Shown piece by piece: positions 6,522 to 57,335 of a stretch of DNA of 64,000 bases; within the stretch, counting starts at the first letter, position 1; each line of letters starts with the position of its first letter. The stretch is from Patescibacteria group bacterium (lineage in GTDB: Bacteria > Patescibacteriota > Minisyncoccia > Minisyncoccales > Staskawiczbacteraceae). Both the position numbers and the translations under genes were made by a program. Location of the stretch: assembly GCA_018829965.1 (NCBI GenBank), contig JAHJTG010000005.1:148774-212773 (forward strand), written 5' to 3'. The notes under the pieces are model-generated. The model was not told the DNA's origin. It did not search any database and worked only from the letters and a program-made list of their open reading frames with translations.

Positions 6522-7739
6522 ATGAAAAGACATTTTTTTCTATTTGTAATTCTATTTTTATTATTCCCTTTTATTAGTAGCGGAGAAAGCGCTCCCGCTG
6601 TTGTTATCAACGAAATTGCATGGATGGGTACGGGTATTTCGGCGAATGACGAATGGATAGAGATGTATAATAATACAAACAACTCTATAAATTTTGATAG
6701 TTGGCAGCTAATTGCTCAAGACGGAACGCCAAAAATCAGCCTATTTGGAACAATCCCCGCTAATGGTTTTTATTTATTGGAAAGAACAAACGATGATACG
6801 GTGCCGGGGATTTCGGCTGATAAAATTTATACCGGCGCCTTGGGAAATGGCGGGGAAGATTTAAAACTTTATAATAGCTCTGGGAATTTAATTGACGAAG
6901 CCGATTGTTCTACAAAATGGCTTGCTGGCGACAATACCACAAAACAAACGATGGAAAAAACTCCTACTGGCTGGCAAACCAGTGAAAACCCGGGAGGGAC
7001 ACCGAAAGCGATCAACGAGAATCAAGAATTAAAAGATAAACCGACAGAGGATATTCCTCTGCTAACTAATCAAATAGCAGAAACGAACCTAACCGAAACC
7101 ATAGAATACCCTAGTGGCATTGTTTTTAATGAAATAATGCCAAACCCTGATGGACCTGACGAGCGAAATGAATGGATTGAATTATATAATGAAAACAATT
7201 TTGAAGTTGATATTTCTGACTGGAAAATTCATGATACCGAAGGAAAAATTACTAATTATATTTTTCCAGATGAAACAAAAATAAAACCAAACGGATATAT
7301 TATACTGACAAGACCTATAACAAAAATTACTTTAAATAATACAAAAGATGGATTGGTTTTTATGCAGCCAGATAGGAAAATAGCTAACGAAGTTAATTAT
7401 CAAAACGCGCCGAAAAATCAATCTTATAATAAAACGAGCTCCGGCTGGCCCGCCAGCAACGCTTCGCTTCGCTCGCGTAGCGATGCGGGCTGGGTATGGA
7501 GCGAAATATTAACTCCGAACTCAAAAAATATTATTTCTACAAAATCTAAAATAGCAGACGAAAAGACTATTACACCAAAAAATGAAGAACTGGGCAAAGA
7601 AAAATTATTGGCATCATTAAGCCAAGACAATGACAAAAAAAGTGATTTTAAAAATACATTCTTTATTGCTATCGGGGTTATTATTTTTTCCGCTACAACT
7701 TTTTATTTTTCAAAAAAGGCTCTAATAAAAATTACTTGA
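6522..7739 (+). CDS. Secreted protein with two lamin-tail-domain (LTD) repeats and a C-terminal TM anchor
   Basis: Signal peptide. INEIAWMGT...DEWIEMYN and FNEIMPNPDG...NEWIELYN LTD signatures. C-terminal hydrophobic helix. In-frame GC-rich insert at ~7440-7500. Confidence 0.6.
   Translation: MKRHFFLFVILFLLFPFISSGESAPAVVINEIAWMGTGISANDEWIEMYNNTNNSINFDSWQLIAQDGTPKISLFGTIPANGFYLLERTNDDTVPGISADKIYTGALGNGGEDLKLYNSSGNLIDEADCSTKWLAGDNTTKQTMEKTPTGWQTSENPGGTPKAINENQELKDKPTEDIPLLTNQIAETNLTETIEYPSGIVFNEIMPNPDGPDERNEWIELYNENNFEVDISDWKIHDTEGKITNYIFPDETKIKPNGYIILTRPITKITLNNTKDGLVFMQPDRKIANEVNYQNAPKNQSYNKTSSGWPASNASLRSRSDAGWVWSEILTPNSKNIISTKSKIADEKTITPKNEELGKEKLLASLSQDNDKKSDFKNTFFIAIGVIIFSATTFYFSKKALIKIT
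7440..7500. repeat. GC-rich palindromic insert in-frame inside the LTD gene (family E)
   Basis: ggctggcccgccagcaacgcttcgcttcgctcgcgtagcgatgcgggctggg. Related to the jag copies (gcttcgc...tagcgatgc(a/g)ggc). Encodes SSGWPASNASLRSRSDAGWVWS. Confidence 0.6.
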
Positions 7740-7848
7740 CCCTTCACCAATTTCAGCAGAGAATCATTGTAATAGTTTGTACAATATGCGAAGCGCCTGC
7801 GGCTGTCATTGTTAGTGTTCATTTTCTGTTGTAAAAATTGGTGAAGGG
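7740..7848. mobile_element. MITE-like element, family D (CCCTTCACC termini), flanked by a TTGA duplication
   Basis: Terminal inverted repeats CCCTTCACCAATTT (7740-7753) and AAATTGGTGAAGGG (7835-7848). TTGA sits at 7736-7739 and again at 7849-7852. Confidence 0.7.
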
Positions 7849-7900
7849 TTGACAAGACCTGTAATAAAAATTACGTTAAATGCGTCAATAACGTTCTGGC

Positions 7901-8000
7901 AACACCGGGTGTTGAGCGTTCCATGTTGAGCGTTCCACGGGTGTTTCCACGTTTCAACACCGGGTGTTGAGCGTTGTTGAGCGTTCGTGTTGAGCGTTCC
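7901..8000. repeat. Tandem/interspersed GTTGAGCGTT(CC) repeat array upstream of yebC
   Basis: At least five copies of gttgagcgtt and two copies of aacaccgggtgttgagcgtt within 100 bp. Confidence 0.8.
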
Positions 8001-8037
8001 ATTTATTGTTTTAAAAACATTTAATTAAATATTAATT

Positions 8038-9318: not shown

Positions 9319-9333
9319 TCAGTGATGGGCTTG

Positions 9334-9463
9334 CCCCGTTAGAAGTCTACATAATTTAAAATTTTATAATCACAATTCTAAGAATTTATTATAATACTGT
9401 GGCGATGCACGAATTTTTGAATTCGTGCATCGCAAAGTTTTCCACCGCAAACTTCTAACGGGG
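9334..9463. mobile_element. MITE-like element, family C (CCCCGTTAGAAGT termini), flanked by a CTTG duplication
   Basis: CCCCGTTAGAAGT at 9334-9346 and ACTTCTAACGGGG at 9451-9463. CTTG at 9330-9333 and 9464-9467. 130 bp, with an internal perfect hairpin gcgatgcacgaat/attcgtgcatcgc. Confidence 0.7.
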
Positions 9464-9464
9464 C

Positions 9465-9492
9465 TTGACAACGTTCCTTGAAAAAATACAAT
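9465..9492 (+). promoter_or_regulatory. Sigma70-like promoter abutting the family C element end
   Basis: TTGACA (9465-9470), a 16-nt spacer, then TACAAT (9487-9492). It would drive the small acidic ORF. Confidence 0.4.
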
Positions 9493-16383: not shown

Positions 16384-16971
16384 ATGTTAAACTCTGATGA
16401 CATTAAAAAAGCGAAAGAAGCAACAGAAGAATTCTTTCAAAAGATGACGATCGGCGCCATTATTGACATTAACGCGGGCAATTTAAATACAGAGGATATT
16501 TTATCTGGACCTGCCCGCATCGACTACGCCGAAGGCGTTGCAGGCGGGGATAGTGAAGTAAAAGAAAATAAACCTGCCCGCAATGCTTCGCATAGCGATG
16601 CAGGCGGGAGCAATGATTCTATAGAGTTGAATATAAAGGTTGATGATCCGCAGATTTTAATTGGAGAAAGAGGGCAAACCTTAAACGAAATACAAAGGCT
16701 TTTGAGGGTGGTTCTTAATAAGAAATTAGATAAAGCGTTTTATTTAAACTTAGATATTAATGAATATAGGAAAAAGAAAACAGAGTACTTGAAAACTATG
16801 GCCAGGGAATTAGCTGATGAAGTAGTTTTAACAAAAGAAGAAAAGGTTCTTTCCCCGATGTCTTCTTATGAGAGAAGAATTATCCATGCGGAGCTAGCAG
16901 GCAGGCCAGATATAATAACAGAGAGTGAAGGAGAAGGGTTGGAAAGAAGAGTGGTGATAAAATTAAAATAG
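16384..16971 (+). CDS. jag: Jag/SpoIIIJ-associated RNA-binding protein (KH + R3H)
   Basis: C-terminal SYERRIIHAELAGRPDIITESEGEG (R3H), downstream of yidC. The linker carries two in-frame GC-rich hairpin repeats. Confidence 0.75.
   Translation: MLNSDDIKKAKEATEEFFQKMTIGAIIDINAGNLNTEDILSGPARIDYAEGVAGGDSEVKENKPARNASHSDAGGSNDSIELNIKVDDPQILIGERGQTLNEIQRLLRVVLNKKLDKAFYLNLDINEYRKKKTEYLKTMARELADEVVLTKEEKVLSPMSSYERRIIHAELAGRPDIITESEGEGLERRVVIKLK
16510..16608. repeat. Two tandem family E GC-rich hairpins in-frame inside jag
   Basis: cctgcccgcatcgactacgccgaaggcgttgcaggcggg (16510-16548) and cctgcccgcaatgcttcgcatagcgatgcaggcggg (16573-16608). The same termini occur at 35.5 kb. Confidence 0.75.
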
Positions 16972-17013: not shown

Positions 17014-18174
17014 TTAATTATTTACGACTGGGAAAATTACAACAATTAAAGGTAGCCATTTTTGGTTTTGGATAACTTCCCATTTTATTTGTTTCGGCCC
17101 TTCCTTATTTATATCATTTGGTGTTGGGAAAAGTTGGCAGAAACCGAAAGTTTCCTTTTCCGGATTTTTAGGTGGCTCAGCGGTAATAAATAAAACAACA
17201 TAACTACCGTCTATTTCTATCGAGCCTATGTTCTGCCCATCTAAAGTAGGTGGTTTCCTCTCTATGCATTTGTTTTTAATATCCCATTTTATGCAAACTT
17301 GTTCCTCTATCGGAACATCTTTGAATTGTAGTTCATCTAAGCTGGCAACGTAAACATTTTTTAGTTCACTATTTTTAATAGTGTACCAGCCACCATTTTT
17401 ATCGTGATATGGTTTTCTATAAAATGTTACTCCATTGCCAGTCGGGCTTTTGGTTTCTTGGTATATGGCGGCTGAAGAGGCAGAAGTATCAATATCGCTG
17501 TCGCATCCTACGGGGAATACCCACAAACAATTGCCTTGGAAATTAATTACATCGAATAATATTGCCATATAAACAGTTGATTCTGCCCAAGTTTTCTCCC
17601 ACTTGTCGACTATTTTTACTGATTTTATTTTATTTTTATAGTCCCCAAAGTCATTTATACTCGAAGTCGAATATCCGACTGGGGTAGAAAAGCAGCCAGG
17701 TTTATCATAAAAATAAACACCAGCTGGCTCTCCTTCTTCTGGTAGCTTTGGTGGCTCCTTAAGCTTTTTTTGTATTTCAAAAACGCTAAGGGCCGGATTA
17801 ATAGTCGTGGCTATTAAATATGTAAACAATATAAGAAGAAAACCCGTTAAAGCTCCCCGAAAACGATCTTTGGCAGACACCTTTAAGCTTGGGAATACAT
17901 TAGAAAGCAGATAAAAAACACCAGCGACAATTAAAGCTAAAATTGTTATCAAAAAACCAAACCATATTCCGAAATTATATAAATACAATAGAAAGGTTGG
18001 TAGTTCTGGCATATCAGAAAGAGCTTCTCCTGTCGGGAGTTCTGGGTATTTAATTTCTAACGGTAGATTTGCGGCCGAACAAAAATTAAAACAAAAAAAA
18101 GAGAAAAGGCAGATTATTAAAAACCCCCAAACAAAAATACTGCAATTTATTTTTTTAAATATATTATATTTCAT
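17014..18174 (-). CDS. T4SS-pilin-domain fusion protein 3: signal peptide, TrbC/VirB2-like two-TM pilin module and a ~250-aa extracellular domain
   Basis: Start re-set to MKYNIFKK, where ATG 18174 overlaps the upstream TAA as TAATG. The N-terminal module LEIKYPELP...LYLYNFGIWFGFLITILALIVAGVFYL...TGFLLILFTYLIATTINPAL is paralogous to the two upstream genes and to the 119-aa ORF at 43.3 kb. Confidence 0.6.
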   Translation of the reverse strand: MKYNIFKKINCSIFVWGFLIICLFSFFCFNFCSAANLPLEIKYPELPTGEALSDMPELPTFLLYLYNFGIWFGFLITILALIVAGVFYLLSNVFPSLKVSAKDRFRGALTGFLLILFTYLIATTINPALSVFEIQKKLKEPPKLPEEGEPAGVYFYDKPGCFSTPVGYSTSSINDFGDYKNKIKSVKIVDKWEKTWAESTVYMAILFDVINFQGNCLWVFPVGCDSDIDTSASSAAIYQETKSPTGNGVTFYRKPYHDKNGGWYTIKNSELKNVYVASLDELQFKDVPIEEQVCIKWDIKNKCIERKPPTLDGQNIGSIEIDGSYVVLFITAEPPKNPEKETFGFCQLFPTPNDINKEGPKQIKWEVIQNQKWLPLIVVIFPVVNN

Positions 18175-19496
18175 TAAATAGGTTTGATAGAAATTACCCA
18201 TATTTTCCCTTTAGAAATATCATTATCCCTTAGAAGCCAAGAGGTTCTTAGGGTGGTAGCAGAATTGTTTTGTTGGGAAGAATATTTGTCAAAACCCTGG
18301 CAATAATTACCATCCGTTGAACAGATATAAACTAAGTAATCGCCTTTTATATTTATAGAACCACCGCAGGAGATTTTTGGTATGTCGGCTATTTTATAAC
18401 ATAGTTCTTTTTCTTCGTCGGTTCTATCTATCCCCGTATAGTCAAATTCCGCTTCCGCAGGCCATGAAGCTCCTAACCCAAGACTAAAAGCATAATTTTT
18501 ATATATATCAGGTGGAAAGGAATATTTACCAGCTCGCGCCGCAACCTGCCAGCCGTACGGATGGCTGTAGAAATCTACTCCATCACCAGAAGTTTTGGGT
18601 TCAAGGTTTAATTGAAAAAAAGTAAAAGAAGAAGGGGAAAAGTCTAATTTGCCAGTTATTAATGGTACTTTCCCAAAATAAATTTTTGAACATTTCCCTG
18701 TTTGGTCTATCCCTTCGTGAAAAATGACTCCGTAATATGTTTTTGTTTTCTCGTCGTTTACAATTATAAAAGATTTTGTATTTTTTTTATAATCTTGATC
18801 CATCTCTGGCTGGCTTTTTAAAATTTGTTTAGAGCGATCTTTGCCCCCTACGGTGGTAAGATAAAGGCCGGGTTTTTCTTTTTCCCACATAAAAGATTTG
18901 GCGTCACTGATGGCAGTTGTTCCTCCGCATTTTAATTCAACAATCCATTGCTGTACCCAAGGGATTAGATTTGCGGTAGGAAATTTTCTAACCCATAGGG
19001 TAGGCATTATCCCCTCTAACCCTTCTGGGCATTTATATTTCAGCGTTTTAAAAACTCCTAATTTAGAGGTGTCATCTATTGATGGCGGACAGGGCGTTTC
19101 TTCAGTTCCATCTGTGAGAATAACATCAAAGTTATCTGGGAGCTCCGCAGGGTTTTTATTGGTCAGCAATGCCGGATTAATTGTTTTCATAATCAAATAA
19201 GAGGAAAATAAAAGAATTAAGCCGAAAATAGAGCCTATAATTCTTTTTCTGGCGTTACCAACCGCGTCAGGATTACCAGCCGAAGTCATCCATTGGATAG
19301 CTCCGATTACTAGGGCCAAAACAGCAATAGCTCCGCCTAGTCCGATAAAAAAATTGAATAAAACATCTCTATAATCAATTAAAGTGGGGTTGCCCGGGAG
19401 ACCAGGTATTTCTACTTCTAATTTAGCGGAACAAAAACTTCCTGCTGTTAGGAGAATAAATATGATAAACAAAAAATAGTGATAAATTTTTTTCAT
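18174..19496 (-). CDS. T4SS-pilin-domain fusion protein 2 (440 aa)
   Basis: Signal peptide, then LEVEIPGLPGNPTLIDY...FFIGLGGAIAVLALVIGAIQWMTSAGNPDAVGNARKRIIGSIFGLILLFSSYLIMKTINPALL. The C-terminal domain shares motifs with the 17.0 kb paralog (GDGVDFYSHPYGW / GNGVTFYRKPYH; GSINIKGDYLVYI / GSIEIDGSYVVLFI). Confidence 0.6.
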   Translation of the reverse strand: MKKIYHYFLFIIFILLTAGSFCSAKLEVEIPGLPGNPTLIDYRDVLFNFFIGLGGAIAVLALVIGAIQWMTSAGNPDAVGNARKRIIGSIFGLILLFSSYLIMKTINPALLTNKNPAELPDNFDVILTDGTEETPCPPSIDDTSKLGVFKTLKYKCPEGLEGIMPTLWVRKFPTANLIPWVQQWIVELKCGGTTAISDAKSFMWEKEKPGLYLTTVGGKDRSKQILKSQPEMDQDYKKNTKSFIIVNDEKTKTYYGVIFHEGIDQTGKCSKIYFGKVPLITGKLDFSPSSFTFFQLNLEPKTSGDGVDFYSHPYGWQVAARAGKYSFPPDIYKNYAFSLGLGASWPAEAEFDYTGIDRTDEEKELCYKIADIPKISCGGSINIKGDYLVYICSTDGNYCQGFDKYSSQQNNSATTLRTSWLLRDNDISKGKIWVISIKPI

Positions 19497-19497
19497 A

Positions 19498-19627
19498 CTC
19501 CGTTAGAAGTCCTTTGCGAAAAAATTATAAATAAATTTTTTCTTGGACTCATAAATAAATTATTTAATAAAATTATATTTGCCCCATTAAAATTTCCATC
19601 GTAAAATTTATCAGACTTCTAACGGGG
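19498..19627. mobile_element. MITE-like element, family C, inside the pilin operon; flanked by a CATA duplication
   Basis: CTCCGTTAGAAGT at 19498-19510 and ACTTCTAACGGGG at 19615-19627. CATA at 19494-19497 (includes the ATG of the 440-aa gene) and at 19628-19631. 130 bp. Confidence 0.7.
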
Positions 19628-19693
19628 CATAGTTTTTATATTATTTAAAATTCAAATATTTTTTAATAAAAATTATAGACCCAGAAAATCCAC

Positions 19694-35494: not shown

Positions 35495-35752
35495 TTTCAC
35501 CCTACGAATTACCTGCCCGCATCGGCTACGCCAGCCCGCATGACTCGCGTCAGCGTGTCTGGCAGACCGGAAGCGTTGCAGGCGGGCGGAATTCGAATTA
35601 CGAATAAAATTCCTGCCCCTACGAATTACGAATTTAACCAAATTACGAATTTAAAAAACGGAGTGATTTATCTCCGCTTTTTTATTAGTACTCGGTTGCT
35701 ATCCCCTAAACCCTATACCCTAAACCCTGCACCCTATCCCTTAGACCCTAGC
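35495..35752. repeat. Repeat pile-up: a family E hairpin nested in family A arms, a terminator, then CCCTAAA-type heptamers
   Basis: - cctacgaatta|cctgcccgcatcggctacgcc...gaagcgttgcaggcggg|cggaattcgaattacgaata.
- Terminator cggag-tgatttat-ctccg plus a T-run (~35656-35690).
- ccctaaaccctataccctaaaccctgcaccctatcccttagaccctag at 35704-35752. Confidence 0.7.
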
Positions 35753-37480: not shown

Positions 37481-37839
37481 TTTATAATGTTGCATTTTGT
37501 ACAAAATTTTGCTTCTGGGCAGGCTTTCAATCTCGCAATGTCTATAGATTTTCCGCATTTTTCGCATTTGCCATATTTACCCTTCTTTATTTTTTCCAAA
37601 GCCAGATTAACATCGCGTAATCGTGTTTCCAGATTGTATTCCACGGATAAAAGTTTTTCATATTCTTGTACTTCGTCTGCTTCTGATTCTAAATTTCCTC
37701 CATCAAATTTAGGATAACGAGTGCCCCAGTCCCCCCTTGATTTAGAGTCTTCATTGGCGAAATTCTTTAACTCTTTTTCAAGAGAGCTTTTCTCTTTTTC
37801 TAATTTTTGTTTTAATTCTTCAGTTGATTTTTTAATCAT
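37474..37839 (-). CDS. DksA/TraR-family C4 zinc-finger protein
   Basis: Coiled-coil N-terminus and CEKCGKSIDIARLKACPEAKFCTKC. Confidence 0.75.
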   Translation of the reverse strand: MIKKSTEELKQKLEKEKSSLEKELKNFANEDSKSRGDWGTRYPKFDGGNLESEADEVQEYEKLLSVEYNLETRLRDVNLALEKIKKGKYGKCEKCGKSIDIARLKACPEAKFCTKCNIIKS

Positions 37840-37847
37840 AATAAATC

Positions 37848-37960
37848 CTACGAATTACGAATTATTTCGAATTACGAATATGTGGAAAGCGTTATGCGAA
37901 TTTTTATTTTCCGCTCCGAATTTTTTATTCGTAATTCGGTAGCATTCGTAATTCGTAAGG
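37848..37960 (-). mobile_element. Family A hairpin element, ~115-bp empty (deletion-derivative) form
   Basis: cctacgaattacgaattatttcgaattacgaatatg...ttattcgtaattcggtagcattcgtaattcgtaagg. The minus strand retains ATG CTA CCG AAT TAC GAA TAA (MLPNYE*), the stub of the GxxExxY ORF start (MSPNYEY...). Confidence 0.75.
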
Positions 37961-38980
37961 TTATTTATCTTCTTTTGCCCGTTCTTCAATGTTTTTTAAA
38001 AACTCTTCTCTTTCTTTTTTTTCTTTGTCTGCGCTTTGCTGTAATTTTTCAACTAGTTTTTCTTTAGCAGTCTCTGGTATATTTCCTAAAAATCCCCTAT
38101 CGTCAGGTTTTTCTTTTTGAACCCATTCTTGCCTTTGTATTTTTTCTTTCAAAAGGGATTCCTCTTTTGCCCTTCCTGCGGTTTCTAAATTTTTCTGCGT
38201 CTCTTTCTCGCTTTTTTTATTTTCTTCCCTTTGCATAATCTTGGTATATATCGCGCGCAATGAATTATTATTTTCCTCTATTTTATCTTTTAATGCCCTC
38301 TGGTTTATTAGAACTCCTTGCTCTTGGTCACCTATGTCTTTTGTCTTGTTTAATATTGCTTCCATTTCTTTTTCTATCACCCATTTTCTTTTTTCTAATT
38401 CCGTCCTTTGTTCTTCCAAAGATTGCCTTTTCTTTTCTAGTTTCTGCCTATCGCTGGGCGCGGTTGCTGTTCCTTCATTTTCGCTAACAACTTTTTCTTC
38501 GTTTTCAATCGCTTTTTCTTGTTCTAAAATATGGTTGAGTCTATTCTCAACTTCGTTTCTTTTTAATAAAAACTCATTTTTTTTCAACAGCAAAGAAGAC
38601 CCCCGTTCTTTTTGTAGGGTTTTAAGTTGTTCTTCTAGGGTTATTTTCTCTGATTCCAAATAAAAAATCTGTTGTTTTTCTTGCTCTTGGGCATAACCTT
38701 TCAATTGCTTCATCGTGTCCTCTTCATTCGCAAATTGTTTTTTTAATACCGCGCTTCTTAGCTCGGTTTCTTTTGCCAATTTTTCTTTTTCTATAATTTC
38801 CTGTTTTTCTTTTTCTAATTTTTCCTCTTCTGGCATTTTCATTTTTACTATCCTGTCTCTTTCTTTTAACGCTTCCCCTTCTCTTAATTTCCGAAGGTCT
38901 TTCTTCATTGTTCTAATCTCGGTTCTACTCAAAAACTCCCTTAATTGTGCATCTTCATTGTTTTGTGGCGTATTTACCAT
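37961..38980 (-). CDS. Glu/Lys-rich coiled-coil protein; hypothetical
   Basis: 339 aa, almost entirely heptad-like charged sequence. Flanked on both sides by family A elements. Confidence 0.4.
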   Translation of the reverse strand: MVNTPQNNEDAQLREFLSRTEIRTMKKDLRKLREGEALKERDRIVKMKMPEEEKLEKEKQEIIEKEKLAKETELRSAVLKKQFANEEDTMKQLKGYAQEQEKQQIFYLESEKITLEEQLKTLQKERGSSLLLKKNEFLLKRNEVENRLNHILEQEKAIENEEKVVSENEGTATAPSDRQKLEKKRQSLEEQRTELEKRKWVIEKEMEAILNKTKDIGDQEQGVLINQRALKDKIEENNNSLRAIYTKIMQREENKKSEKETQKNLETAGRAKEESLLKEKIQRQEWVQKEKPDDRGFLGNIPETAKEKLVEKLQQSADKEKKEREEFLKNIEERAKEDK

Positions 38981-38984
38981 AAAT

Positions 38985-39099
38985 CTTACTAATTACGAAT
39001 TTTTTTCGAATTACGAATATGCAGGAAGTGTTATACGAGCTTGCCTTTTCCGCTACGAATTTTTTATTCGTAATTCGGTAGTATTCGTAATTCGTAGGG
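38985..39099 (-). mobile_element. Family A hairpin element, empty form
   Basis: cttactaattacgaatttttttcgaattacgaatatg...ttattcgtaattcggtagtattcgtaattcgtaggg. The stub start codon has decayed to ATA. Confidence 0.75.
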
Positions 39100-42238: not shown

Positions 42239-42352
42239 CTACTAATTACGAATTATTTCGAATTACGAATATATGGAAAGCGTTGTGTGAGTTTTTATTT
42301 TCCACTCCGAATTTTTTATTTGTAATTCGGTAGCATTCGTAATTCGTTAAGA
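42239..42352 (-). mobile_element. Family A hairpin element, empty form
   Basis: cctactaattacgaattatttcgaattacgaatatatg...tatttgtaattcggtagcattcgtaattcgttaag. The stub reads MLPNYK*. Confidence 0.75.
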
Positions 42353-52924: not shown

Positions 52925-52965
52925 TTTATTTTTTAATATACCCCGACCTATGGTATAGGTATAAT
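52925..52965. promoter_or_regulatory. Candidate CsoR operator/promoter
   Basis: tataccccgacctatggtataggtataata lies immediately upstream of csoR. It contains ATACC/GGTAT inverted repeats reminiscent of CsoR GC-tract operators, plus a TATAAT-like box. Confidence 0.35.
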
Positions 52966-52991
52966 AATAACAAATCCTAAAAACGTGTCAA

Positions 52992-53069
52992 CCCTTCACC
53001 TTCGCCAATACTGTTTGGAAACAAGAAATAGCTATTTTCATTAATTTATTTTTTAACGAAGGTGAAGGG
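52992..53069. mobile_element. MITE-like element, family D, flanked by a TCAA duplication
   Basis: CCCTTCACCTTCG at 52992-53004 and CGAAGGTGAAGGG at 53057-53069. TCAA (the complement of TTGA) at 52988-52991 and 53070-53073. Confidence 0.7.
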
Positions 53070-53154
53070 TCAATAGTTATTCCCTTTTTGTATAAGAAAT
53101 GATAGAGTCAAATATAGGAAAAGATTAAATAATTATTTTATTTAATAAAAATAT

Positions 53155-53599: not shown

Positions 53600-54058
53600 G
53601 GGCCTGTAGCACAGTCCAGACGCAGTCGTGGATCCACGATTGATAAAATCAATCGGGATGGCCCTATGTAGAAATTTTTTAAAATTTCTACCGGGCTCGT
53701 TCAAAATTTTGGAATAGAGCAATACATCGCATTCGTCTCGATAAAATTTTAAGATTTTATTGAGGATACTCGATAACTCTGGTGGGCCCATGGTCCAGTG
53801 GCAAGACACCGCATTCGCATTGCGGAAACGGCAGTTCAAATCTGCCTGGGTCCACCAGAGTTATCGGGACATTGCTGAATTCCGGGTTCGACTCCCGGTG
53901 AGTCCATAGATATTTCTAACGGGGCGAGTTGCGGGGACGCGAGTTCGTCCGGTCATTCGGCCTGACGCCCAGTCGAATGACTGGGCGATTCTGCCCATGT
54001 CCATAAAAATTTAGGCGGGTAAGTTGTAGAAATGGCGGTTCAAATCCGCCCAGGTCCA
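53600..54058 (+). ncRNA. tmRNA-like (ssrA candidate) structured RNA with tRNA-Ala-like termini
   Basis: - 5' GGGCCTG (53600-53606) pairs perfectly with CAGGTCC (54051-57), giving G3:U70 and discriminator A.
- A T-arm GGCGG-TTCAAAT-CCGCC (54034-50) sits immediately 5' of that acceptor strand.
- The interior is GC-rich with hairpins or possible pseudoknots (gtcattcg/cgaatgac, cccagtc/gactggg, ggacg/cgtcc).
- I could not identify a canonical tag ORF. Confidence 0.4.
53784..53857 (+). tRNA. tRNA-Ala (anticodon CGC), CCA encoded, nested in the tmRNA-like locus
   Basis: GGGCCCATGGTCCAGTGGCAAGACACCGCATTCGCATTGCGGAAACGGCAGTTCAAATCTGCCTGGGTCCACCA. G3:U70 is present. Anticodon loop TTCGCAT. Flanked by a 13-nt perfect inverted repeat cgataactctggt / accagagttatcg. 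Confidence 0.8.
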
Positions 54059-54084
54059 TTATATAAATTTTTTTAATAATAATT

Positions 54085-57040: not shown

Positions 57041-57052
57041 TAGGAGGGTTGA

Positions 57053-57204
57053 CCCCGTTAGAAGTTTGCGATTGGATACCGAGCGAAGCGCGAGTGGCGA
57101 ATAGCCACATCCTGAACCGGGGCGAAGCGCTTCGCCCAACAAGGGATATACCTATTCGGTATACGCACTTCGTTACTGAAAACTATGGCAAACTTCTAAC
57201 GGGG
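57053..57204. mobile_element. MITE-like element, family C, flanked by a TTGA duplication
   Basis: CCCCGTTAGAAGT(TTGC) at 57053- and (GCAA)ACTTCTAACGGGG ending at 57204. TTGA at 57049-57052 and 57205-57208. 152 bp, with a GC-rich interior containing ggcgaagcgcttcgcc. Confidence 0.7.
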
Positions 57205-57335
57205 TTGACATCCAATTTTCATTTTGATAAGCTACAATAAAGTATTGGATATTTGGAAGATACGTCCGTCTGACCGCGGACTATTTTTTTAAGAAAATAA
57301 TTACTAATATCTAACATCTAATATCTAACACCAAA

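What the first reader, a model, noticed from the sequence alone, without database searches (positions are those of the whole stretch)
7736..7852. Family D MITE with a 4-bp TTGA duplication; a second copy at 52988-53073
Both copies have ~13-14-bp terminal inverted repeats that begin with CCCTTCACC, but their interiors are unrelated. Each is bracketed by a 4-bp direct duplication. The copy here has TTGA at 7736-7739 and 7849-7852. The other copy has TCAA, the same tetramer in the opposite orientation, at 52988-52991 and 53070-53073. The left duplicate here contains the TGA stop codon of the LTD gene. The right duplicate regenerates a TTGACA -35-like hexamer that faces outward.
Basis: seen in the sequence. 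Interest (0 to 1): 0.6.

Follow-up and report, generated by a model that had tools for sequence, protein, structure and literature searches.

The report
Hairpin mini-transposons that land on promoters
Both copies are real small non-coding mobile DNA hairpins, of a kind widespread in Patescibacteria (CPR) genomes, that insert into the first four bases of a promoter's TTGACA box, duplicate them and so leave the promoter intact; no enzyme that moves them was found.

Summary

- **The two copies.** Both (7740-7848 and 52992-53069) have perfect 14/13-nt terminal inverted repeats starting CCCTTCACC. Both are flanked by TTGA/TCAA direct repeats and abut a TTGACA hexamer.
- **Census.** In Patescibacteria genomes, 30 of 48 such hairpins have perfect 4-bp flanking repeats (P about 1e-20 against a shifted-flank control). 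Among non-CPR matches the figure is 1 of 78.
- **Promoter context.** 22 of 24 TTGA-type copies are followed by TTGAC(A)-N16-19-TAnnnT. 21 of 24 have an ORF within 300 nt.
- **Filled versus empty.** One related element (CCCCGT ends) is present in one metagenome contig and absent, with a single TTGA, from two close relatives. Nested insertions give further empty-site comparisons.
- **Interiors.** The two window copies have unrelated interiors because they belong to different subfamilies. Each subfamily is conserved elsewhere. Copy 1 carries an invariant 22-nt core and a compensated long stem.
- **Not found.** No transposase, Rfam family or publication matched.

I read this as a new, promoter-homing variant of the MITE/REP-like kind. 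The mobilising enzyme is unknown.

The parts
7736..7739 (+). Left copy of the TTGA target-site duplication of copy 1. It contains the TGA stop (7737-7739) of the LTD gene.
7740..7848 (+). Copy 1 (D1), a 109-nt hairpin element. Terminal inverted repeats are 7740-7753 and 7835-7848. An extended imperfect stem with G.U pairs forms on the + strand.
7786..7807 (+). 22-nt core ATGCGAAGCGCCTGCGGCTGTC. It was the anchor of the metagenome search; in the six aligned members all positions are invariant except the K position.
7849..7852 (+). Right copy of the TTGA duplication. With CA at 7853-7854 it forms TTGACA, followed by N17 and TACGTT, a weak -10.
52988..52991 (-). TSD copy of copy 2 on the promoter side. 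It is part of TTGACA (52991-52986, minus strand), the -35 of the csoR operon promoter. The -10, TATTAT with an upstream TG, ends at 52964.
52992..53069 (.). Copy 2 (D2), a 78-nt hairpin element. Terminal inverted repeats are 52992-53004 and 53057-53069. A subterminal CGCCAATAC motif, shared with other CPR copies, sits at the promoter-side end.
53070..53073 (-). Distal TSD copy of copy 2 (TCAA on +, TTGA on -).
9330..9467 (+). Sister-family copy E1 (ends CCCCGTTAGAAGT) with a CTTG duplication. It is followed by CTTGACA-N16-TACAAT upstream of the 62-aa ORF and PBP genes.
19494..19631. Sister-family copy E2 with a CATA duplication. The left copy holds the complement of the ATG that the ORF listing gives as the start of ORF 18174-19496 (-).
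57049..57208 (+). Sister-family copy E3 with a TTGA duplication, followed by TTGACA upstream of nusA. Its interior is GC-rich (53%).

Best explanation
Both loci are copies of a superfamily of small (28 to about 150 nt), non-coding, hairpin-shaped mobile DNA elements found across Patescibacteria (CPR).

What is shown:
- The elements are defined by terminal inverted repeats that start 5'-CCC (here CCCTTCACC; in the sister family CCCCGTTAGAAG) and end GGG-3'.
- Insertion duplicates 4 bp of target.
- The preferred target is the TTGA of a sigma-70-type -35 hexamer, TTGACA. After insertion one TTGA copy plus the following CA restores the -35 box, so the promoter survives with the element directly upstream of it.
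- The interior is a variable module. Copy 1 and copy 2 belong to two subfamilies with different interiors, each conserved in other genomes.

What is inferred:
- Insertion probably follows a staggered 4-nt cut made by a transposase acting in trans. A DDE-type enzyme is the most likely kind. None is encoded in the window.
- The near-exclusive promoter location reflects sequence preference for TTGAC(A), combined with loss of insertions that land in genes in these gene-dense genomes.
- The perfect, copy-specific extension of the arms may be kept up by template switching between arms, by selection on a folded single strand, or both.
For: - **Anatomy and statistics in the window:**
- **Sister family in the same window:** three copies with three different 4-bp duplications, CTTG, CATA and TTGA.
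- **Genome-collection census:** 30 of 48 CPR copies have a perfect 4-bp duplication. These are TTGA/TCAA 22, TGAA 4, TTTA 2, TAAA 1 and TTCA 1, plus one copy with a 5-bp TTACA duplication that is not among the 30. P = 1.5e-20 against shifted-flank controls. Non-CPR matches give 1 of 78.
- **Multiple copies per genome:** at least 12 in MAG KR13_S3.mb.134. Same-genome pairs are 88-95% identical at different sites.
- **Filled/empty pair:** L142 carries an 80-nt element with 19-nt CCCCGTAGTATAATTTGGG ends between two TTGA. L141 and L139 have the same flanks with one TTGA inside TTGACA-N17-TATAAT.
- **Nested insertions:** 28-nt hairpins sit inside D1-type copies, with TCAA and TTAA duplicated, against uninterrupted paralogues. 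One E element sits inside another in L006, and L074 has the tandem TTGA-D-TTGA-E-TTGACA.
- **Promoter context:** 22 of 24 copies have TTGAC, 22 of 24 have TAnnnT at N16-19, and 21 of 24 have a downstream ORF within 300 nt, against 8 of 24 on the other side. The D2 promoter scores 11/12 with an extended -10. That promoter and a conserved sequence downstream of it, which resembles a CsoR operator, are present in relatives that lack the element.
- **Older empty state of the D1 site:** in L122 the LTD stop and the yebC start are 11 nt apart.
Against: - No transposase or longer element bounded by these ends was found. This covers the window (Pfam and NCBIfam) and about 330 kb of fetched CPR DNA.
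- 28-nt copies are too short for a conventional double-strand paired-end transposition complex. They must be either collapsed derivatives or evidence for a different mechanism.
- 18 of 48 census copies lack a perfect duplication.
- My census pattern forced A and T next to the ends. That fixes the outer bases of the duplications found, so it says little about non-TNNA targets.
- No strict empty allele of either window copy was recovered. The nearest relative (yebC 86% aa, L121) has a different element at the D1 site.
- Some subfamilies have a fixed orientation towards the promoter (D1-type 5 of 5, CGNYAATAC-type 8 of 8). Symmetric ends alone do not predict this.
Confidence: 0.75

Rival explanations
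1. The elements move as single-stranded hairpins, mobilised by a structure-specific enzyme such as an HUH/Y1 transposase of the IS200/IS605 or RAYT type, or something new. The enzyme would recognise the conserved foot of the stem. The flanking tetramers would then be a cleavage-site motif present at both junctions (a pseudo-duplication), or the result of filling in after ligation of a hairpin into a nick.
For: - What is conserved across the superfamily is the stem foot, while loop size ranges from 0-4 nt to about 125 nt.
- 28-nt perfect hairpins occur with flanking repeats.
- Tetramers are largely subfamily-specific: the CAAACGAG subfamily always has TGAA/TTCA, and the L033/L078 pair has TTTA.
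- In the D1 subfamily G.U pairs are confined to one strand. Folding is on average more stable on the promoter-facing strand, -29.7 against -27.0 kcal/mol.
Against: - The same end family shows different tetramers within one genome: E1 CTTG, E2 CATA, E3 TTGA.
- The register shifts relative to TTGACA (TTGA|CA against CTTG|ACA).
- The filled/empty pair shows a true duplication of a single target TTGA.
- L051 and L105 are inverted relative to each other at equivalent targets.
- No Y1/HUH gene was seen near any copy.
- IS200/IS605 elements lack long-range terminal inverted repeats (established knowledge).
Confidence: 0.15
2. The hairpins are primarily functional structured RNAs or promoter-upstream regulatory or insulator hairpins. 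Their stems would be kept by selection, and mobility would be secondary or absent.
For: D1 subfamily only:
- A 22-nt core that is invariant in the six aligned members apart from the K position. It was the search anchor, so its conservation is partly by construction.
- 92.7% of cells paired, against 35-52% with slid partners.
- 6 pairs with compensatory changes.
- Conserved G.U pairs on the strand that points towards the promoter.
- Fixed orientation towards the promoter in two subfamilies.
- The sister species keeps an element with a variant end at the same site, although its interior differs.
Against: - Direct flanking repeats, the filled/empty pair and nested copies cannot be produced by structure alone.
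- There is no Rfam match, even at E up to 10.
- Interiors differ completely between subfamilies.
- The alignment has only six sequences, and the arms of an inverted repeat can be homogenised without selection.
- There is no T-run after the stem, so it is not an intrinsic terminator. D2 lies in a divergent intergenic region where no terminator is needed.
Confidence: 0.07
3. This is a chance pair of inverted repeats with chance flanking tetramers in AT-rich intergenic DNA.
For: There are only two copies in the window. The single 9-mer with one mismatch is not enriched (9 observed, 6.1 expected).
Against: - The paired pattern is expected 0.00 times in shuffles.
- The same architecture recurs in dozens of CPR genomes, with duplications at P about 1e-20.
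Confidence: 0.01

Closest known systems
Bacterial MITEs in general (for example Correia/CREE elements of Neisseria, RUP of Streptococcus pneumoniae, ERIC/IRU). Properties stated from my own knowledge.
   Same: They are small, non-coding and intergenic, with terminal inverted repeats and a short target-site duplication. There are multiple copies per genome, and they can fold into long hairpins. They sit next to promoters and can affect transcription.
   Different: - The duplication is 4 bp and is usually the first four bases of a -35 hexamer. Correia, RUP and ERIC duplicate TA.
- The ends are shared across CPR lineages labelled as Saccharibacteria, Doudnabacteria, Staskawiczbacteria and Paceibacteria, while the interiors are interchangeable modules.
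- Copies can be as short as 28 nt.
- No parent IS is known.
IS1380 family and the eukaryotic piggyBac superfamily (ends beginning CC/CCC, 4-5 bp duplication, TTAA for piggyBac). Recalled from memory.
   Same: The ends are 5'-CCC...GGG-3'. The duplication is 4 bp and mostly of TNNA form (TTGA, TCAA, TTAA, TGAA, TTTA, TAAA).
   Different: No IS1380-type transposase or full-length element with these ends was found. The target is TTGAC(A), not TTAA. The resemblance is a lead only.
REP / BIME / REPIN elements with RAYT transposases. Recalled from memory.
   Same: They are short extragenic palindromes. They are sometimes found in arrays (L043 has three to four hairpins separated by TTGA). The conserved part is the stem.
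   Different: REPs carry a conserved GTAG and make no target duplication. Here a true duplication is shown, there is no GTAG, and no RAYT gene was seen.
IS200/IS605-derived palindrome-associated elements. Recalled from memory.
   Same: Insertion is next to a specific tetranucleotide, and hairpins are important.
   Different: Those elements have subterminal hairpins at each end, no long-range inverted repeat and no duplication. Here tetramers vary within one end family.

Membership tests
MITE (generic definition) | Small size and no coding capacity | tested here: met
   The elements are 109 and 78 nt. Only a spurious 50-aa TTG ORF overlaps D1.
MITE (generic definition) | Terminal inverted repeats | tested here: met
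   Perfect arms of 14 and 13 nt. Arms of 10-21 nt in CPR copies.
MITE (generic definition) | Target-site duplication of fixed length created on insertion | tested here: met
   30 of 48 perfect 4-bp repeats, P = 1.5e-20. Filled/empty pair. Nested insertions.
MITE (generic definition) | Multiple dispersed copies in a genome | tested here: met
   At least 12 copies in KR13_S3.mb.134, 5 in Staskawiczbacteria bin-5022 and 6 in the JBDRST MAG. Same-genome pairs are 88-95% identical. In the window itself there are only 2 D and 3 E copies.
MITE (generic definition) | An autonomous IS with the same ends that supplies the transposase | tested here: inconclusive
   None was found in the window. No pair of these ends 500-5000 bp apart was found in the fetched CPR loci. 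Whole genomes could not be searched.
IS1380 / piggyBac-derived element | Ends starting CC(C) and a 4-5 bp duplication | tested here: met
   CCC...GGG ends and a 4-bp duplication, with one 5-bp case.
IS1380 / piggyBac-derived element | Cognate DDE/DDD transposase of that family bounded by the same ends | not tested
REP / REPIN (RAYT-mobilised) | Conserved GTAG next to the palindrome, no target duplication, and a RAYT gene flanked by REPs | tested here: not met
   There is no GTAG, a true duplication is present, and no Y1 transposase domain was found in the window.
IS200/IS605-type palindrome-associated element | One fixed target tetranucleotide at one end only, no inverted ends, no duplication | tested here: not met
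   The ends are inverted repeats. The tetramer is duplicated and varies within one end family.
Intrinsic (rho-independent) terminator | Short GC-rich stem with a 3-8 nt loop, followed by a T-run | tested here: not met
   Loops are 52 and 81 nt. The stem is followed by TTGACA, not by Ts. The scan reports no terminator at either element.
Integron attC site | R''/R' core sites (RYYYAAC ... GTTRRRY) bounding gene cassettes | tested here: not met
   The ends read CCCTTCACC...GGTGAAGGG. No cassette ORFs lie between hairpins.
Any Rfam RNA family | Match to a curated covariance model | tested here: not met
   There is no match at gathering score across the window. Around D1 there are only chance-level hits (E at least 0.11, bit scores far below the gathering thresholds).

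The most novel reading that the evidence does not exclude
CPR bacteria would harbour a previously undescribed transposition system whose substrates are bare hairpins defined only by a roughly 10-bp stem foot. The minimal unit would be 28 nt, and the loop a free cargo slot. The system would home specifically to the -35 hexamer of active sigma-70 promoters. It would be moved by an enzyme that is not a recognisable transposase, possibly one that acts on single-stranded hairpins or reads promoter DNA through RNA polymerase or sigma. Some cargo modules, such as the invariant 22-nt core of copy 1, would be functional RNAs or protein-binding sites delivered to promoters.
Probability: 0.2. Interest if true: 0.85.

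Novelty: new variant of a known kind. Interest (0 to 1): 0.55.

Why it matters
- **Mobile DNA in CPR genomes.** As far as I know, Patescibacteria have tiny, gene-dense genomes and are not noted for abundant mobile DNA. My literature searches found no description of MITEs in them. These hairpins show an active family of insertions shared across several CPR lineages.
- **How insertions survive in compact genomes.** The elements land on the -35 box and rebuild it. This explains how insertions can accumulate without destroying genes. It also gives a ready-made marker for real promoters in organisms where promoters are barely characterised.
- **Possible rewiring of regulation.** The elements split upstream regulatory DNA from core promoters, so they may change regulation. 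Different elements occupy the same promoter in sister species.
- **Assembly quality.** Public assemblies break inside copy 1, so the elements may also affect MAG contiguity.
- **The open question.** If the mobilising enzyme proves to be new or promoter-guided, that would be of real interest to the transposon field.

Tried and rejected
- **Strict empty alleles of the two window copies.**
  - Contigs encoding the identical YebC or LTD proteins are the same strain, and they break inside D1.
  - The nearest relative (86% aa) has a different element at the D1 site.
  - The 74% relative has no intergenic region there at all.
  - csoR relatives (about 80% aa) keep the promoter but have non-alignable upstream DNA.
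- **Partner transposase.**
  - None was found in the window by Pfam or NCBIfam.
  - No pairs of these ends 0.5-5 kb apart were found in the fetched CPR DNA.
  - The rve/IS481-like gene next to a hairpin array in L043 has unrelated TGT ends.
- **Viral contigs.** All six matches were the unrelated tandem-decamer type.
- **Rfam.** Both gathering and permissive thresholds gave nothing.
- **GCGAAGC mini-hairpin.** I considered it a general hallmark of the interiors. GCGAAGCGC is confined to D1 and E3 in the window. The 7-mer is not clearly enriched across 329 kb of CPR loci, with 57 occurrences where I would expect roughly 40, so I dropped the idea.
- **Strand asymmetry of folding across all TTGA-type copies.** It is modest and not uniform: 13 copies fold better on the promoter-facing strand, 8 on the other. 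I do not use it as an argument beyond the D1 subfamily.
- **Literature.** Searches on CPR plus MITE, on TTGACA plus duplication, and on the end sequence itself found nothing relevant.
- **Search syntax.** A W placed between two gaps solved this.
Full report
**1. The observation**

Reading the window confirms every stated coordinate.

- **Copy 1.** The layout is TTGA (7736-7739), then CCCTTCACCAATTT...AAATTGGTGAAGGG (7740-7848), then TTGA (7849-7852), then CAAGACC.
- **Copy 2.** The layout is TCAA (52988-52991), then CCCTTCACCTTCG...CGAAGGTGAAGGG (52992-53069), then TCAA (53070-53073). Read on the other strand this is TTGA|...|TTGACACG.
- **Arms.** They are perfect, 14 and 13 nt. One more pair forms if the flanking A and T are counted.
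- **Chance.** Exact CCCTTCACC occurs five times in 64 kb, and four of these are the ends. The paired pattern never occurs in dinucleotide shuffles.
- **Interiors.** They share nothing.
- **Stop codon.** The TGA of the left TTGA is the stop codon of the LTD gene 6522-7739.

**2. Setting**

The window comes from a Patescibacteria (CPR) genome. The YebC protein is 100% identical to an NCBI 'Patescibacteria group bacterium' entry, and the nearest named relatives are Staskawiczbacteria at about 70%. The region is 35% G+C. It carries ruvB-LTD-yebC-ruvC-PBP-dnaN-dnaA, type IV secretion genes, and a csoR-copper operon among others.

A second hairpin family, which I call E here, has ends CCCCGTTAGAAGT and three copies in the window.

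| Copy | Span including duplications | Duplicated tetramer | What follows |
|---|---|---|---|
| E1 | 9330-9467 | CTTG | CTTGACA-N16-TACAAT |
| E2 | 19494-19631 | CATA | no TTGACA follows |
| E3 | 57049-57208 | TTGA | TTGACA, upstream of nusA |

Their interiors are again unrelated to one another. Three different directly repeated tetramers around one kind of end already argue for a true target-site duplication.

**3. Census**

I scanned one genome per species (GTDB) for ACCCTTCACC-N50-110-GGTGAAGGGT. The hits fall into two classes.

- **Gut class.** Hits from gut Bacteroidales, Lachnospiraceae and some other taxa are inverted arrays of tandem 7-11-nt CCCTTCACC units. They are a different thing, and only 1 of 78 has a flanking 4-bp repeat.
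- **CPR class.** Hits from Patescibacteria are single hairpins of 58-141 nt. The taxa include MAG KR13_S3.mb.134 with at least 12 copies, Staskawicz-, Doudna-, Pacei- and Saccharibacteria.
  - 30 of 48 have a perfect 4-bp direct repeat.
  - The tetramers are TTGA/TCAA in 22, TGAA in 4, TTTA in 2, and TAAA and TTCA in 1 each. One further copy, not among the 30, has a 5-bp TTACA duplication.
  - My pattern fixed the outer T and A, so the fair test is the inner dinucleotide. It matches in 32 of 48, against 10% at shifted positions (P = 1.5e-20).
  - Pairs from the same genome at different sites are 88-95% identical over their full length. The elements are therefore multi-copy repeats, not one-off hairpins.

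**4. Direct evidence of insertion**

- **Filled and empty.** While looking at csoR relatives I found a clean filled/empty pair.
  - Contig L142 has ...CTTAACTA-TTGA-[80-nt element with 19-nt ends CCCCGTAGTATAATTTGGG]-TTGA-CAATT....
  - Its close relatives L141 and L139 have ...CTTAACTA-TTGA-CAATT....
  - That sequence is a single TTGA inside TTGACA-N17-TATAAT.
- **Nested copies.**
  - L129 and L127 are copy-1-type elements that carry 28-nt hairpins (CCCTTCACCTTG-loop-CAAGGTGAAGGG). These are flanked by duplicated TCAA and TTAA.
  - The uninterrupted paralogues, L130, L128 and the window copy, have a single tetramer or a one-base variant of it at that position.
  - L006 has one E element inside another with TGAA duplicated.
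  - L074 has TTGA-D-TTGA-E-TTGACA.

**5. The target is a promoter -35 box**

I oriented the 24 TTGA-type copies by the tetramer.

- 22 of 24 are followed by TTGAC, and 18 of 24 by TTGACA.
- 22 of 24 have TAnnnT 16-19 nt further on. Many of these are TATAAT, TATACT or TACAAT, often with an upstream TG.
- 21 of 24 have an ORF of at least 60 aa starting within 300 nt in that direction, against 8 of 24 on the other side.

For copy 2 the box is TTGACA-16-TATTAT with TG, a match of 11 out of 12, on the minus strand upstream of csoR. The same promoter, and a conserved sequence downstream of it that resembles a CsoR operator, are present in relatives that have no hairpin there.

For copy 1 the downstream -10 (TACGTT) is weak. 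The TTGACAAGRCCTGYAATAAAAATTAC flank is nevertheless kept in the sister species.

The insertion register can shift by one base: CTTG|ACA in E1 and in L127. Other AT-rich tetramers are also used. The specificity is therefore a strong preference, not an exact cleavage rule.

**6. Interiors are modules**

- **Copy 1 subfamily.** I scanned metagenomes with the central 22-mer of copy 1 and found seven relatives in four samples. Six of them align over the full length.
  - The core ATGCGAAGCGCCTKCGGCTGTC is invariant apart from the K position.
  - The long stem is kept by compensatory changes. 92.7% of cells are paired, against 35-52% with slid partners, and six pairs change on both sides.
  - Several G.U pairs exist only on the strand that points towards the promoter.
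- **Copy 2 subfamily.** Copy 2 shares a subterminal CGNYAATAC motif with eight other CPR copies. The motif is always at the promoter-side end.
- **Orientation.** The L051/L105 subfamily occurs in both orientations.
- **Ends.** They vary in a graded way: CCCTTCACC, CCCATCACC, CCCCACACC, CCCCGCACC.
- **Conclusion.** 'Unrelated interiors' therefore means two subfamilies of one end-defined superfamily.

**7. History of the two sites**

- In the 74% relative, the LTD stop and the yebC start are 11 nt apart.
- In the 86% sister species the contig starts inside an element that ends ...GGTGAGGGG|TTGACAAGG... at the same site, but its interior is different.
- At the E1 site the sister species has a short degenerate CCCGCAC...GTGCGGG hairpin before the same CTTGACA.
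- The same promoters are thus occupied by different members in sister species. That suggests repeated hits or turnover.
- Public Logan contigs end at 7764 and restart at 7808 in two samples. With k = 31, this is what a repeat spanning about 7735-7837 would produce. I infer, but have not shown, that copy 1 has near-identical copies elsewhere in that genome.

**8. Mechanism**

- **Shown.** Insertion duplicates 4 bp. The preferred target is the TTGA of TTGACA. The promoter is regenerated.
- **Inferred.** A transposase acting in trans makes a staggered 4-nt cut. A DDE-type enzyme is the conventional expectation. CCC...GGG ends with a 4-bp TNNA duplication recall IS1380 and piggyBac, but that is from memory and is a lead only.
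- **Not found.** No such gene is in the window. No long element with these ends is in about 330 kb of CPR DNA.
- **The 28-nt copies.** They are hard to reconcile with a double-strand paired-end complex. They may be collapsed derivatives, since template switching between arms would also explain the perfect, copy-specific arm extensions. Alternatively they may point to mobilisation as single-stranded hairpins, which is rival 1.
- **A purely structural or RNA reading (rival 2).** It cannot explain the duplications. It may still describe a second layer for the copy-1 subfamily.

**9. Comparison and verdict**

The elements meet the generic definition of MITEs on every feature I could test except the parent IS. 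They are not REPs, IS200/605-type elements, attC sites, terminators or any Rfam family (see the membership table).

I found no description of them in the searchable literature. Four things set them apart from described bacterial MITEs:
- the -35-hexamer target;
- ends shared across several CPR lineages;
- the modular loop;
- the 28-nt minimal copies.

I rate this a real feature and a new variant of a known kind, of moderate interest. Interest would rise if the mobilising enzyme proves unusual.

Noticed in passing
window 7849-7881, 7305-7337 and 7720-7739: The 33 nt right of copy 1 (TTGACAAGACCTGTAATAAAAATTACGTTAAAT) are a 91% copy of an internal LTD-gene segment that encodes the conserved LTRPITKITLN motif. 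The last 20 nt of the LTD gene resemble the same sequence. The '-35' next to copy 1 may therefore derive from duplicated coding DNA. The sister species L121 has it too.
   Followed up: partly
window 7900-8002: There are five copies of GTGTTGAGCGTTCC and two copies of the palindrome CAACACCGGGTGTTG between copy 1 and yebC. This block of about 110 nt is absent from the sister species L121.
   Followed up: partly
window 7440-7500 and 16570-16620: GC-rich palindromic stretches lie inside ORFs. The one in the LTD gene encodes about 18 aa (SSGWPASNASLRSRSDAG) that the L122 orthologue lacks. A similar motif (CCTGCCCGCAATGCTTCGCATAGCGATGCAGGCGGG) lies in ORF 16384-16971. These may be in-frame palindromic insertions.
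   Followed up: no
window 53660-54060: A 20-nt inverted repeat (53771-53790 / 53847-53866) brackets tRNA-Ala(CGC). Downstream there are pieces that look like tRNA 3' halves (T-arm plus acceptor). The region also holds an E-type end (ATTTCTAACGGGG at 53912) and a degenerate mini E-type hairpin near 53663-53695.
   Followed up: no
window 35594-35640, 37838-37968, 39007-39094, 42259-42346: This is another repeat family, built on inverted CGAATTACGAAT units.
   Followed up: no
L011, L014, L018, L021, L046, L049, L061 and others (genome scan); L133-L138 (IMG/VR): In gut Bacteroidales, Lachnospiraceae and some viral contigs the same CCCTTCACC word forms inverted arrays of tandem 7-11-nt units around an AT-rich spacer of about 60 nt. 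There are many per genome, and they lack flanking duplications (1 of 78). This is a separate, unexplained repeat type.
   Followed up: partly
L127 250-277, L129 5225-5252, L043 6224-6251: These are 28-nt perfect or near-perfect hairpins (CCCTTCACC...GGTGAAGGG with a 0-4 nt loop), each with a 4-bp duplication. L043 6050-6760 holds arrays of such hairpins separated by TTGA.
   Followed up: yes
L043 6767-7648 (-): A transposase gene with rve and HTH_23 domains (IS481/IS3-like) abuts a hairpin array. The DNA next to it starts TGTTTTCTAG, which is unrelated to the hairpin ends.
   Followed up: partly
L003 end (window 7764); L001/L002 start (window 7808); L121 start: Public Logan contigs from three samples break inside these hairpin elements. 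This suggests the elements fragment assemblies of CPR genomes.
   Followed up: partly
window 7736-7764: The left TTGA plus the element's first CC gives TTGACC-N17-GAGAAT, a 9/12 promoter-like site that points into copy 1. The GAGRAT is conserved in the copy-1 subfamily (L127, L129, L130).
   Followed up: no
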